Origin: Escherichia phage JLBYU24
Direction: 5' to 3' (one strand)
Sequence record: OK272476.1
DNA: 64,000 nucleotides
The notes under the pieces: model-generated
The model's input: the letters and a program-made list of their open reading frames with translations, nothing else
Told to the model about the DNA's origin: nothing
Databases searched by the model: none
Position numbers and translations under genes: made by a program
Shown here: positions 25,547-31,207 of the stretch, one piece after another
Layout of the letters: the number at the start of each line of letters is the position of its first letter
How positions within the stretch are numbered: position 1 is the stretch's first letter

Positions 25547-25732
25547 TTAAAGCGTATTCACATAAGCTATTAATTCATTTTCTTTCTTATCAAACCGGTC
25601 AGCAAATTCTTCTTGTTGTTCGGGAGATAGCGGGCCGTATTCATCATAAAAGGTGTTTGCTTCTGTATGCTCATCTAGAAGTTCATGGATAAGCTCAAAC
25701 AATTTATCTTTTTGTTCTTTACTTAGACTCAT
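25547..25732 (-). CDS. Hypothetical acidic protein
   Basis: ORF track. Confidence 0.55.
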   Translation of the reverse strand: MSLSKEQKDKLFELIHELLDEHTEANTFYDEYGPLSPEQQEEFADRFDKKENELIAYVNTL

Positions 25733-25898
25733 ATATTAATTTCCAGGAGTTTTAAAATAATTCGCTTTTGCTTAAATATTTCCATAGTTAAATGACCAGT
25801 ATCTTTTTGACCGATTCCAATGGCAAAACCTTTATTAACAGCGAGTTCAATTAAATTATCAAGCTCACGTAACACTTCGTATTGTAACTCAAAACTAT

Positions 25899-26126
25899 TC
25901 ATTTTGGTTTACCTTCTTTAACGAAATCAGGATAAGGATAAAATCCTGAATAAAATCCTTCACCTTTATGATTGATGCATCCTTTATTAGAACAATAGCA
26001 CCAATAATCGAAATCACAAGCCATTTCATCGTTGCATAAAGCAAAAACAACAGGCCACTTACACTTTTCACAGTGGGCATTTTTAAGAATACTAGTTTGG
26101 CTCATAACCATGTAACCTTTAAGCAA
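25899..26126 (-). CDS. Cys-rich small protein (start possibly 26105)
   Basis: Multiple Cys pairs CEKC...C..C...C.C...C; ATGA coupling with upstream ORF if Met at 26105. Confidence 0.45.
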   Translation of the reverse strand: MLKGYMVMSQTSILKNAHCEKCKWPVVFALCNDEMACDFDYWCYCSNKGCINHKGEGFYSGFYPYPDFVKEGKPK

Positions 26127-26314
26127 TATTCTTCTACATGTTGTTTACGACCTTTCTTATCAATAAAGGTATATTCAACGAATGTTCCAATGTAGTCTTT
26201 ATCTACATCATGTGGACTATTAATTGGACATTTAGTACGGCAAATGCGTTCCCATTGACGAATAATTACTGCTTTGTTTTTAGGATCAAACGGATGCGGG
26301 TAATGTACTTTCAT
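26102..26314 (-). CDS. Hypothetical protein
   Basis: ORF track. Confidence 0.55.
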   Translation of the reverse strand: MKVHYPHPFDPKNKAVIIRQWERICRTKCPINSPHDVDKDYIGTFVEYTFIDKKGRKQHVEEYCLKVTWL

Positions 26315-26765
26315 AATCCACCACTATTAAATCAATATCAGGAGTAAACATGTCGATTAATTTAGAAACCTTATCCCAATCGCCGCCAGCAATACCACAA
26401 CCTATGCGTGGAATGTAAATTACCGGTTTAAACAAAAGGGTTTCTGCCTGTAGATTTAATTCTATCATGCAGTTTACTAAAGCACCATAATCAAGATTAG
26501 GACCTGGTTCGTATTGCGTATACAAGTTATAACATATGCCAAAACCATTAGGTTTATGTTTAAAAACAATAGACATATCGCCTAATTTATCACGAGAACC
26601 GTACTCAGTAGTGGTTTTATCTATTTCTAAAATTTTGGGATAGGCTCTTGCTAATTGACCAGCTACACCACTGCCCATTGTATGAAAACAGTTACACCCA
26701 TGCGCAATAATATTACCTTCAAGAAAGAGGGCGACAATATCGCCCTTGATATATTTTACAATCAT
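26286..26765 (-). CDS. Macro-domain protein (ADP-ribose binding/processing fold)
   Basis: 159 aa; HGCNCFHTMGSGVAGQL and IPRIGCGIAGGDW resemble macro-domain motifs. Confidence 0.65.
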   Translation of the reverse strand: MIVKYIKGDIVALFLEGNIIAHGCNCFHTMGSGVAGQLARAYPKILEIDKTTTEYGSRDKLGDMSIVFKHKPNGFGICYNLYTQYEPGPNLDYGALVNCMIELNLQAETLLFKPVIYIPRIGCGIAGGDWDKVSKLIDMFTPDIDLIVVDYESTLPASV

Positions 26766-27103
26766 CTAGTACTCAATCCTCGATTATAAGAATCTACCAA
26801 ACGGTCAACCATTGAATGACAAGCGGCTTTATCTTTTTCCTCCGCAACTGAACATTCTAAGGTATTCCACTTTTTAGCATATCGTTTTAACAATGTATCG
26901 TTTTTGTATCTGCTTGATTTATCTCTTTCTCCGTCTTTATATGCATATATTAATTTCTGCGCAAATTCAGCTTGGCATGCTTTATTTTTCCCGCAATAAT
27001 CCGCTGCAGTACGGTTTACATACTCTCTAATTTCAGTATATGATGTATCTGCTAACGCAGAAAATGAAATTAATCCTATACATAAAACCAAAATTTTAGT
27101 CAT
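26762..27103 (-). CDS. Secreted/periplasmic protein
   Basis: N-terminal signal peptide MTKILVLCIGLISFSALA, 4 Cys in mature part. Confidence 0.6.
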   Translation of the reverse strand: MTKILVLCIGLISFSALADTSYTEIREYVNRTAADYCGKNKACQAEFAQKLIYAYKDGERDKSSRYKNDTLLKRYAKKWNTLECSVAEEKDKAACHSMVDRLVDSYNRGLSTR

Positions 27104-28169: not shown

Positions 28170-28490
28170 TTATTCTTTAAATCTAATCAATTTATTCATA
28201 GACTTTGAAACTTCTGCACGAACCTCATGTAAGTTTTTAAGCTGTTCAAGACGCTGCTCATAGTAAGCAATTTCATCTTCTTCGAGACAGTCCTGTGAAT
28301 CTTCTTTAAGATAACGTGCATAGTCCTGAAAAGCTTTACGGACTACTTCCTGGAAGTCATCAAGACTTTGAATTTTCTTAGGAGCGGCAGATACACGACG
28401 AGGTGCAGTATAATACTCATAACCAAACCCTGCACTTAATTGAGCCATTAGTATTTTTCCTCTGGTTGGAACACAGCACGGCAAGCCCAC
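28170..28490 (-). CDS. Hypothetical protein
   Basis: ORF track. Confidence 0.6.
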
Positions 28491-28750
28491 ATACTTGCTT
28501 CTTTGAGTTTCGTTTTAGCAATAGTTAACTGATCGAGGCTTTCGGCGTAATTCTTCGCGAGTTCATCATCTTCACAGCTATCAAATGCTTCCCAAAATTC
28601 ATCGTATAAAGCATCAAAGATAAGTCCTAAACGAACTTCAGCGTCTTTAATAGCATTTACTTTACCGATTTTTTCGTCGGTATGCGGCTTATAACCTTTA
28701 ATGTCTTCAATCATATTTGACTTCCTCACCAGTACATAAATCATATTCAA
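28448..28750 (-). CDS. Hypothetical protein (start uncertain)
   Basis: ORF track; overlaps neighbours if first ATG used. Confidence 0.5.
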
Positions 28751-30307: not shown

Positions 30308-30781
30308 TTATTTGAACGATTTAACGTACTGAATAGAACCTTTACTATTCACAAAGGCAATTTTACCATTTTTATTATACATGGTAGCAGTACGTTGATA
30401 ACCATAAGTTTGTTTACCAGATTGATAACCAACTAATGCGAAATTATCTTCGCCCATTTTATTCTGTTTAGCGCGAATGCGTTCATGACCATGTGCCATA
30501 AGAACCTTAGCATCACCAGTTGCAATGGATCGACGAGTTTTTTCATCTTCAACTGTATTAACAAAGTCGTCAAATGAATCAAATTTAGCATGAGATTTAT
30601 TATACAATTTTCCATCTACTGCATAATTATATCCCTGTACATCCATCTCAACTTCTGTACCATCATCCAATACAGCAGTGATTTTTTGACCTTTTTTAAA
30701 TTTCAAAAGATCAGTAAAAGATTCAGCAATAATTTGAGAATTAATAGCTGCTTCAGTGATAAATTCTTGATATGTTTTCAT
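30308..30781 (-). CDS. Internal-protein-like (capsid-targeted) protein
   Basis: 157 aa; N-terminus MKTYQEFITEA matches the T4 internal-protein capsid targeting sequence; located beside denV/e as ipII/ipIII in T4. Confidence 0.7.
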   Translation of the reverse strand: MKTYQEFITEAAINSQIIAESFTDLLKFKKGQKITAVLDDGTEVEMDVQGYNYAVDGKLYNKSHAKFDSFDDFVNTVEDEKTRRSIATGDAKVLMAHGHERIRAKQNKMGEDNFALVGYQSGKQTYGYQRTATMYNKNGKIAFVNSKGSIQYVKSFK

Positions 30782-30790
30782 ATGTTTCCT

Positions 30791-31207
30791 TTAAATGTAA
30801 ATATTTTTACCGTAATACTTATACCAATGTGGTTTCATTAAAATTTTTTCATCAAGTCGTTGTTGACTCAATTTAATAGCTGATTTGCATGGATTATAAT
30901 CATTTTTCCATTCTACTGGAATATCGCTGATGTCAGGAACTTCAGTATCTTTTATACTGAACCCGCGTTTTAAGCATTCCGTTATAATGTCTAATTGACG
31001 CTTTCGCAAAAATTCTAACTTATCGTAAAAGAACGTAACATGACCAGAACCTAAAATAAACTCGGAAGATATTTTAAAATCTTTAACGCGCTTACCGTTT
31101 GCCACATGCTTACGAACTATACCAAAAACACGCGGCAATTCACGGTATTCTGCGATTAAATGTTGATCAGCAAGTTCAGATACTAAAGTCAAATTAATAC
31201 GAGTCAT
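30791..31207 (-). CDS. denV: Endonuclease V (pyrimidine-dimer DNA glycosylase)
   Basis: 138 aa, [17 protein letters not shown]...WYKYYGK recalled as T4 endo V. Confidence 0.9.

What the first reader, a model, noticed from the sequence alone, without database searches (positions are those of the whole stretch)
26286..26765. Macro-domain protein in the tk-regB interval
The 159-aa protein has motifs resembling the macro-domain ADP-ribose pocket (HGCNCF...GSGVAGQL and IGCGIAGGDW). Macro domains bind or hydrolyse ADP-ribose and derivatives, so a phage copy could reverse ADP-ribosylation by host defences or degrade ADP-ribose-derived signals. In T4 this interval holds the vs.x genes, one of which is the anti-CBASS sponge Acb2, so it is an anti-defence neighbourhood.
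Basis: partly seen in the sequence, partly recalled or inferred. Interest (0 to 1): 0.65.

Follow-up and report, generated by a model that had tools for sequence, protein, structure and literature searches.

The report
Phage macrodomain that counters DarTG defence
The gene is a real macro-domain protein, a divergent copy of phage T4 gene tk.4 (recently named adfM), which lets T4 escape the bacterial DarTG2 system that ADP-ribosylates phage DNA; so the finding is right but already known.

Summary

A November 2025 preprint found tk.4 as the only T4 gene needed on DarTG2 hosts; a clean knockout was sensitised, and the gene was renamed adfM.

Two points are added here:
- **Active site.** This phage family does not have the catalytic lysine of DarG and TARG1. 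It has an invariant glutamine (Q84) plus H22, N25, G122 and G124. That is the active site of Streptomyces SCO6735, an enzyme shown to cleave thymidine-linked ADP-ribose from DNA.
- **Divergent allele.** The window copy is only 57-58% identical to the T2/T4/T6 protein, while flanking genes are 95-100% identical. It is a mosaic allele and is itself untested.

Most likely function: a glutamine-type ADP-ribosyl glycohydrolase that strips DarT2 marks from phage DNA. Novelty is low.

The parts
26286..26765 (-). Coding sequence of the 159-aa macro-domain protein, an allele of T4 tk.4/adfM. The end coordinate includes the stop codon.
   Evidence: ORF. Pfam Macro above cut-off. PHROG 335 at E 2e-71. 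100% nucleotide identity to vB_EcoM-G28 G28_00112 'Macro domain protein, conserved domain tk.4 PHA02595'. 58% amino-acid identity to T4 Tk.4, E 4e-70. AlphaFold2 model with pLDDT 94.2.
26688..26702 (-). Motif H22-G23-C24-N25-C26. H22 corresponds to SCO6735 H24. G23 corresponds to V25, whose backbone holds the proposed catalytic water. N25 corresponds to SCO6735 N27, DarG N22 and PhiKZ AdfM N23.
   Evidence: H22, G23, N25 and C26 are invariant in 112-119 homologues. Residue equivalences come from hhalign. The roles of the SCO6735 residues come from PMC9411070. PhiKZ AdfM N23A has reduced activity.
26655..26678 (-). Glycine-rich loop 1 (M30-G31-S32-G33-V34-A35-G36-Q37), which lines the ADP-ribose pocket. 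S32 occupies the place of the DNA-positioning K34 of SCO6735.
   Evidence: G33 and A35 are invariant; M30 and G31 are nearly so. Alignment to SCO6735, DarG and TARG1.
26514..26528 (-). Motif N80-L81-Y82-T83-Q84. Q84 occupies the position of the catalytic K84 of TARG1 and K80 of DarG, and of the essential Q85 of SCO6735.
   Evidence: N80, Y82 and Q84 are invariant in 119 of 119 homologues. The alignment holds in MAFFT A1, the profile-to-TARG1 alignment, hhalign to SCO6735 and distant phage homologues.
26376..26411 (-). Phosphate-binding loop 2 (P119-R-I-G122-C-G124-I-A-G-G-D-W130). G122 and G124 correspond to G126 and G128 of SCO6735. A126 stands where TARG1 has D125.
   Evidence: P119 and W130 are invariant; I121, G122 and G124 are nearly so. 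The phmmer alignment to 5e3b fixes the numbering. G128E lowers SCO6735 activity.
26762..26765 (-). ATGA overlap: the tk.4 start codon overlaps the stop codon of vs, indicating co-transcription and probable translational coupling.
   Evidence: The minus-strand sequence reads ACTAGATGATTGT.
26295..26680 (.). Divergent mosaic patch. Nucleotide identity to T4 falls to 38-72% here, against 82-100% on both sides.
   Evidence: Identity in successive 40-column blocks of a global alignment to T4. Per-gene protein identities: flanking genes 95-100%, Tk.4 58%.
26102..26314 (-). Downstream gene tk.3 (70 aa, 96% identical to T4). Its start overlaps the last 29 nt of the macro-domain ORF.
26762..27103 (-). 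Upstream gene vs (valyl-tRNA synthetase modifier, 97% identical to T4), in the same transcriptional orientation.

Best explanation
The ORF encodes a single-domain, stand-alone ('orphan antitoxin-like') macrodomain enzyme. It is the allele, in this Tequatrovirus, of T4 Tk.4/AdfM.

Proposed mechanism (inferred): on hosts carrying DarTG2, the DarT2 toxin ADP-ribosylates thymidines in TNTC motifs of single-stranded phage DNA and blocks replication. The phage protein binds the ADP-ribose in its macro pocket (loops 30-37 and 119-130) and hydrolyses the ribose-thymine N-glycosidic bond, restoring the DNA.

The chemistry is most likely that described for Streptomyces SCO6735, not that of DarG or TARG1. 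There is no catalytic lysine. An invariant glutamine (Q84), held in place by N25, positions the distal ribose, and a backbone-held water at residue 23 starts the reaction.

Shown here: the macro fold, class membership, the residue equivalences, orthologous position and the mosaic divergence. Taken from the literature for relatives: the anti-DarTG2 phenotype (T4 allele) and thymidine-ADPr hydrolysis (SCO6735). Inferred: that this 57-58%-identical allele does the same thing by this mechanism.
For: - **Macro domain.** Pfam PF01661 scores 33.1 bits against a cut-off of 22. The AF2 model has pLDDT 94.2 and pTM 0.89.
- **Orthology to T4 tk.4.** The gene sits in the same slot between tk.3 and vs, is 58% identical (E 4e-70), and is labelled tk.4 PHA02595 in GenBank.
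- **Function of the orthologue.** tk.4 was the single significant hit of a T4 transposon library on a DarTG2 host, and a clean knockout was sensitised.
- **Active site.** Q84, N25, H22 and G23 are invariant, and G122 and G124 nearly so, across 112-119 homologues, and the T4 allele retains all six. hhalign (probability 99.0%, E 3.4e-18) maps them onto SCO6735 Q85, N27, H24, V25, G126 and G128.
- **SCO6735 biochemistry.** In SCO6735, Q85A abolishes and N27S nearly abolishes cleavage of thymidine-linked ADP-ribose on DNA. The enzyme protects cells from DarT.
- **Independent precedent.** An unrelated phage macrodomain, PhiKZ gp104, removes DarT2 marks in vitro.
Against: - No biochemistry exists for any Tk.4-family protein. 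The T4 evidence is genetic plus structural similarity only.
- The window allele is only 55-58% identical to the tested T2/T4/T6 allele, so its specificity could differ.
- The family lacks the two DNA-positioning lysines of SCO6735: K34 is S32 here, and K89 lies in a 5-residue loop segment that is absent. In SCO6735, K34E nearly abolished DNA activity.
- The SCO6735 mechanism itself rests partly on molecular dynamics.
- Sequence alignment around Q84 is sensitive to loop gaps. One MAFFT run (A3) placed SCO6735 Q85 differently.
- I could not inspect model coordinates to confirm the N25-Q84 geometry.
Confidence: 0.68

Rival explanations
1. It is a metabolic 'phosphatase': an ADP-ribose-1''-phosphate phosphatase or O-acetyl-ADP-ribose deacetylase like yeast Poa1p or YmdB, clearing small ADP-ribose derivatives rather than repairing DNA.
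Confidence: 0.08
2. It removes ADP-ribose from proteins, either marks placed by host ADP-ribosyltransferase toxins or those placed by the phage's own Alt/ModA/ModB enzymes.
For: TARG1 and SCO6735 also hydrolyse glutamate-linked protein mono-ADP-ribose. T4-like phages carry their own ADP-ribosyltransferases.
Against: From established knowledge, Alt and ModA modify arginine, a linkage that macrodomains are not known to cleave. No protein-linked phenotype has been reported. The DarTG2 screen gave tk.4 as its single hit.
Confidence: 0.08
3. It protects without catalysis, either by binding and blocking DarT2 directly or by sequestering an ADP-ribose-derived signal such as Thoeris gcADPR.
For: Catalytically dead SCO6735 Q85A, DarG K80A and TARG1 K84A all inhibit DarT in vitro, SCO6735 most strongly. 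A sharply divergent allele is what direct protein-protein antagonism might produce.
Confidence: 0.08
4. The window allele has drifted to a different substrate than the T4 allele. Candidates are marks left by another DarT-like enzyme, or ADP-ribosylated RNA bases.
For: It is only 57-58% identical to the T4 allele inside a backbone that is otherwise 95-100% identical. At least three allele classes occupy this locus, at >=90%, about 74-77% and about 57% identity to the window protein. Differences include loop 2 (GCGIAGGD here, GAGIGKGN in T4).
Against: The H22, N25, Q84, G122 and G124 positions are identical in both alleles. Mosaic exchange of accessory genes is common in these phages and need not imply a new function; the neighbouring tk.1/tk.2 region is also divergent. 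T4 remains sensitive to the mRNA ADP-ribosyltransferase system CmdTAC, so at least the T4 allele does not reverse that mark.
Confidence: 0.08

Closest known systems
T4 Tk.4 = AdfM (anti-DarT factor Macrodomain), bioRxiv 10.1101/2025.11.20.689424
   Same: Same genomic slot between tk.3 and vs. Same single-domain size (155 against 159 aa). Same family (PHROG 335, PHA02595). All invariant active-site residues are shared.
   Different: Only 57-58% amino-acid identity, with the divergence confined to a patch at about 26295-26680. The window protein has four extra C-terminal residues and a 29-nt overlap with tk.3, where T4 has 4 nt. Loop 2 differs: GCGIAGGD against GAGIGKGN. The window allele has no experimental data.
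Streptomyces coelicolor SCO6735 (PDB 5E3B) and its close relative Bacteroides BT1257 (2AFC/2FG1)
   Different: About 26-29% identity. The phage protein lacks K34 and K89 and has a loop after the glutamine that is 5 residues shorter. Its motif is N-L-Y-T-Q rather than N-M-I-G-Q-H-G. SCO6735 is a cellular, DNA-damage-inducible gene.
DarG antitoxin of DarTG2 (M. tuberculosis 5M3I, T. aquaticus 5M31)
   Different: No catalytic lysine (K80 corresponds to Q84 here). No C-terminal DarT-binding domain. No adjacent darT gene. 27.8 bits against a family cut-off of 250. About 20-23% identity.
PhiKZ gp104, also named AdfM (Cell Rep 2026, PMC13309987)
   Same: A phage-encoded stand-alone macrodomain that counters DarTG2. 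It was shown in vitro to remove DarT2 marks from DNA.
   Different: It is a lysine-type, DarG-like protein with the motif F-P-T-K-D-N-W. It is barely alignable to the window protein by BLASTP (E 0.001 over 31 residues). It is imported into the phage nucleus. The two proteins share a name but are not orthologues.
Human TARG1/OARD1 (4J5R, 2LGR)
   Different: Both TARG1 catalytic residues are replaced: K84 by Q84 and D125 by A126.

Membership tests
Macro domain superfamily (Pfam PF01661) | Sequence match above the curated gathering score | tested here: met
   33.1 bits against a cut-off of 22, E 6.2e-8, covering profile positions 2-117 of 118.
Macro domain superfamily (Pfam PF01661) | Three-layer alpha/beta/alpha macro fold | tested here: met
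   [not shown]
Macro domain superfamily (Pfam PF01661) | Binding of ADP-ribose in the cleft formed by the two glycine-rich loops | not testable with these tools
   Both loops are present and conserved: MGSGVAGQ at 30-37 and PRIGCGIAGGDW at 119-130. Binding itself needs an assay or a liganded structure.
T4 Tk.4 / AdfM family (PHA02595, PHROG 335) | Orthologous position between tk.3 and vs in a T4-like genome | tested here: met
   The gene order tk, tk.x, tk.3, this gene, vs, vs.1, regB matches T4.
T4 Tk.4 / AdfM family (PHA02595, PHROG 335) | Full-length sequence homology to T4 Tk.4 | tested here: met
   58% identity over 155 residues without gaps, E 4e-70. PHROG 335 at E 2e-71.
T4 Tk.4 / AdfM family (PHA02595, PHROG 335) | Required for phage growth on a DarTG2 host | not testable with these tools
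   Reported for the T4 allele only. T2, T4 and T6 share that allele, and the window allele is 55-57% identical to it.
Glutamine-type ALC1-like macrodomain hydrolases (SCO6735 type) | Glutamine at the position of TARG1 K84 / DarG K80 | tested here: met
   Q84 is invariant in 119 of 119 homologues. It aligns to TARG1 K84 and DarG K80 and to SCO6735 Q85 by hhalign. It is kept in Felixounavirus, Pakpunavirus, Bacillus and Vibrio phage homologues.
Glutamine-type ALC1-like macrodomain hydrolases (SCO6735 type) | Asn27, His24 and loop Gly126/Gly128 equivalents | tested here: met
   N25, H22, G122 and G124 are invariant or nearly so.
Glutamine-type ALC1-like macrodomain hydrolases (SCO6735 type) | DNA-positioning lysines K34 and K89, and the mobile loop that is 5 residues longer | tested here: not met
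   K34 aligns to S32 (Ala, Ser or Gly across the family). The loop after Q84 is 5 residues shorter, so there is no counterpart of K89.
Glutamine-type ALC1-like macrodomain hydrolases (SCO6735 type) | Hydrolysis of thymidine-linked ADP-ribose on ssDNA | not testable with these tools
   Shown for SCO6735. It needs a gel-shift or AMP-Glo assay for this protein.
DarG antitoxin (NCBIfam NF048014; PADLOC DarG) | Whole-protein score at or above the family cut-off | tested here: not met
   27.8 bits against a cut-off of 250, with only the macro part of the 338-position profile matched. PADLOC gives 27.7 bits.
DarG antitoxin (NCBIfam NF048014; PADLOC DarG) | Catalytic lysine (K80) | tested here: not met
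   Q84 stands at that position.
DarG antitoxin (NCBIfam NF048014; PADLOC DarG) | C-terminal DarT-binding domain and an adjacent darT gene | tested here: not met
   The protein is a single 159-aa domain. Its neighbours are tk.3 and vs, and no ADP-ribosyltransferase lies nearby.
   [not shown]

The most novel reading that the evidence does not exclude
The sharply divergent alleles at the tk.4 locus (>=90%, about 75% and about 57% identity classes on near-identical backbones) could be specificity variants. Each would be tuned to a different DarT2 lineage, or to a different nucleic-acid ADP-ribosylation mark. The locus would then be a hot spot of an ongoing arms race, with the glutamine-type chemistry a phage-wide solution present in about 5% of sequenced phages.
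Probability: 0.12. Interest if true: 0.5.

Novelty: already known. Interest (0 to 1): 0.2.

Why it matters
DarTG systems stop phages by ADP-ribosylating their DNA, and stand-alone phage macrodomains that erase the mark are one way phages escape. For this gene the main point is already public: GenBank annotates it as a macro domain protein, and the T4 orthologue has been named AdfM on genetic evidence.

What this analysis adds is modest but testable:
- **A different active site.** The T4-type AdfM family is not a DarG copy. It carries the glutamine-type active site of SCO6735, and this is conserved in homologues found in 2776 of 50,697 phage records. That predicts Q84 and N25 as the residues to mutate. 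It also means that two unrelated enzymes now share the name AdfM.
- **An untested allele.** The locus is allelically very diverse, and the allele here has not been tested.

This matters for predicting which therapeutic or model phages resist DarTG2-bearing hosts.

Tried and rejected
- **SCO6735 in a plain MAFFT alignment.** In A3 the gap around the post-glutamine loop was placed differently, and SCO6735 Q85 did not align with Q84. I relied instead on three lines: the consistent ungapped alignment to TARG1 and DarG; the published structural equivalence of SCO6735 Q85 with TARG1 K84 and DarG K80; and a profile-profile hhalign. A later MAFFT run with more phage sequences agreed.
- **Fragment search for the SCO6735 sequence.** A C-terminal fragment search returned only 30 residues. 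Querying with BT1257 gave the full alignment.
- **Model geometry.** I looked for model coordinates to measure the N25-Q84 distance, but none are exposed to scripts.
- **Bacterial gene context.** A bacterial homologue (P0095, Pelagimonas) has no DarT or other toxin next to it, so context gave no functional clue.
- **Hairpin inside the ORF.** The terminator-like hairpin at 26728-26746 is not significantly more stable than shuffled sequence (z -1.67, 16 of 200 shuffles as good). I do not treat it as a feature of the system.
- **Thoeris and CBASS-type sponge roles.** No sequence or fold evidence points that way.
- **Reversal of CmdTAC mRNA ADP-ribosylation.** T4, which carries tk.4, is strongly restricted by CmdTAC.

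Full report
**Observation.** The ORF listing gives an ATG-initiated ORF of 159 aa at 26286..26765 on the minus strand. HGCNC is at residues 22-26, MGSGVAGQ at 30-37 and PRIGCGIAGGDW at 119-130. These map to 26688-26702, 26655-26678 and 26376-26411. The start codon overlaps the stop codon of the upstream gene in an ATGA, and the last 29 nt overlap the start of the downstream gene.

**Which genome and which gene.** The 480 bases are 100% identical to Escherichia phage vB_EcoM-G28. In that record the CDS (G28_00112) is annotated 'Macro domain protein ... conserved domain tk.4 PHA02595'. RefSeq versions of related phages call it 'phosphatase'.
- Comparing the window with the T4 reference shows the T4 gene order rI.-1, rI, rI.1, tk, tk.x, tk.3, this gene, vs, vs.1, regB, vs.3-vs.8.
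- The gene is therefore the positional orthologue of T4 tk.4.
- vs.4, which is Acb2, is at 28451-28714, just beyond regB and not inside that interval.

**It is a macro domain.**
- Pfam Macro PF01661 matches over nearly its whole length, above the gathering score (33.1 against 22 bits).
- PHROG 335 matches at E 2e-71.
- An AlphaFold2 model built on 112 homologues is confident (pLDDT 94.2, pTM 0.89).
- A profile search of the PDB ranks BT1257 (3.5e-19), TARG1 (1.6e-16), SCO6735 (4.9e-15), Poa1p (2.4e-14) and DarG (4e-12 and 2e-10).
- The best NCBIfam and PADLOC hits are both DarG, but far below the family cut-off (27.8 against 250 bits).

**What is already published.** A bioRxiv preprint of November 2025 (10.1101/2025.11.20.689424) screened a T4 transposon library on a host expressing DarTG2.
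- It found tk.4 as the single significant hit.
- A clean tk.4 knockout was sensitised to DarTG2.
- The authors noted structural similarity to M. tuberculosis DarG.
- They renamed the gene adfM and proposed that it removes ADP-ribose from DNA.
- No enzymology is reported there.

Independently, a 2026 Cell Reports paper (PMC13309987) gave the same name to PhiKZ gp104. That paper showed in vitro that gp104 removes DarT2 marks from a TNTC oligonucleotide, and that an N23A mutant has reduced activity.

**Active site.** I verified my recalled sequences of TARG1 and the M. tuberculosis DarG macrodomain against the PDB. I recovered the T. aquaticus DarG, BT1257 and SCO6735 sequences from printed alignments.
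- In alignments to TARG1 and DarG, the window protein has Q84 where TARG1 has the catalytic K84 and DarG has K80. It has A126 where TARG1 has D125.
- Across 119 homologues Q84 is invariant, as are H22, G23, N25, C26, G33, A35, D49, N80, Y82, P119 and W130.
- The literature resolves the apparent loss of the catalytic residue. SCO6735 of Streptomyces coelicolor is a stand-alone ALC1-like macrodomain with Q85 at exactly this position.
- In SCO6735, Q85A abolishes activity, N27S nearly abolishes it and G128E lowers it. A water held by the V25 backbone is proposed to start the reaction.
- SCO6735 cleaves thymidine-linked ADP-ribose from ssDNA and protects cells from DarT (PMC9411070; review PMC9967889).
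- A profile-profile alignment of the phage family against SCO6735, BT1257 and ALC1 (probability 99.0%, E 3.4e-18) maps H22 to H24, G23 to V25, N25 to N27, Q84 to Q85, G122 to G126 and G124 to G128.
- Two SCO6735 features are missing. K34 corresponds to S32, and the loop after the glutamine is five residues shorter, so K89 has no counterpart.
- Distant phage homologues from Felixounavirus, Pakpunavirus, a Bacillus phage and a Vibrio schitovirus all keep the N-x-x-[T/G]-Q motif.
- PhiKZ gp104 has the DarG-type F-P-T-K motif and is barely alignable to the window protein.

The two proteins called AdfM are therefore different lineages using different catalytic residues.

**The allele in this window.** The protein is only 58% identical to T4 Tk.4 and 55-57% identical to the T2 and T6 proteins, which are 99-100% identical to T4's.
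- Flanking genes are much closer to T4: rI.-1, rI, rI.1 and vs.1 are 100% identical, tk 99.5%, tk.3 96%, vs 97% and regB 99%.
- At the nucleotide level, identity to T4 is 98-100% in vs and 88-90% in the first 80 nt of the gene.
- It falls to 38-72% between about 26295 and 26680, then returns to 82-100% in tk.3.
- This is a sharply bounded mosaic replacement.
- tblastn finds homologues in 2776 phage records. The identity bands suggest at least three allele classes at this locus in T4-like phages: 318 records at >=90%, 122 records at 60-80% (the Tequatrovirus examples seen are about 74-77%), and the T4 type at about 57%.
- All active-site residues named above are the same in both alleles.
- I found no experiment on the window-type allele.

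**Most likely mechanism.** The gene is co-transcribed with vs and tk.3, with overlapping stop and start codons. The protein would act on DarTG2 hosts by binding ADP-ribose attached to N3 of thymidine in single-stranded phage DNA and hydrolysing the glycosidic bond through the glutamine-type mechanism.

| Basis | Steps |
|---|---|
| Shown here | Macro fold, class, residue equivalences, synteny, mosaic structure |
| Shown elsewhere for relatives | DarTG2 phenotype (T4 allele), dT-ADPr hydrolysis (SCO6735, and PhiKZ gp104 with a different active site) |
| Inferred | This allele has the same substrate and chemistry |

I put this at about 0.68.

**Rivals.**
- *A small-molecule 'phosphatase' role.* This is the source of the RefSeq and PHROG name. 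As far as I know it rests on the historical A1pp label, plus similarity to Poa1p.
- *Protein de-ADP-ribosylation.* This is possible in vitro for this class but has no supporting phenotype.
- *Non-catalytic inhibition of DarT.* It has precedent in dead mutants of SCO6735, DarG and TARG1. It does not explain an invariant catalytic constellation.
- *A shifted substrate for this allele.* This cannot be excluded and is the most novel reading.
- *Reversal of CmdTAC RNA marks.* This is unlikely, at least for the T4 allele, because T4 is strongly restricted by CmdTAC.

**Verdict.** The finding is real and correctly interpreted in its essentials, but it is already annotated in GenBank and its function has been reported for the orthologue. 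The added value here is the glutamine-type (SCO6735-like) assignment, the non-orthology of the two AdfM proteins, and the untested, strongly divergent allele. Interest is low (0.2) and novelty is 'already known'.

Noticed in passing
window 25547-26094 (minus strand): A second mosaic patch lies just downstream of tk.3. T4 tk.1 has no counterpart here and T4 tk.2 matches at only 54%. The window instead carries three small ORFs of 61, 57 and 68 aa (PHROGs 653, 3452 and 2306, all of unknown function). The 68-aa ORF is cysteine-rich. T2 and T6 have annotated ORFs of the same sizes as the 57- and 68-aa ones in this slot; I did not compare their sequences.
   Followed up: partly
window 26728-26746 (minus strand), inside codons 7-13 of the macro-domain ORF: A terminator-like hairpin of 8 pairs followed by a T-rich run sits 17 nt into the coding sequence. 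Two related phage records have a 'terminator' feature overlapping the matched gene region (H29 and H33). Folding of the 86-nt context is not significantly better than shuffles (z -1.67).
   Followed up: partly
literature: PMC13309987 and bioRxiv 10.1101/2025.11.20.689424: The name AdfM has been given independently to two non-orthologous phage macrodomains. PhiKZ gp104 is lysine-type and DarG-like (F-P-T-K motif). T4 Tk.4 is glutamine-type and SCO6735-like (Y-T-Q motif). They are barely alignable by BLASTP.
   Followed up: yes
window 26762-27103 (minus strand), gene vs: The gene immediately upstream, translationally overlapped with the macro-domain gene, is vs (valyl-tRNA synthetase modifier). 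In T4 it was the most strongly depleted gene in minimal glucose medium relative to LB in the same transposon screen.
   Followed up: no
window 30572-31207: Further along, denV is only 78% identical to T4. The internal-protein gene in the place of ipII is about 33% identical, and vs.8 aligns over only 196 of 219 residues at 88%. The region as a whole is a patchwork of conserved and replaced modules.
   Followed up: no
[not shown]
   Followed up: no
L006 9132-9599 (phage T6 tk.4): T6 differs from T2 and T4 by two residues in loop 1 (HTMKAG instead of HTMGSG). This puts a lysine one position before the SCO6735 K34 equivalent.
   Followed up: no
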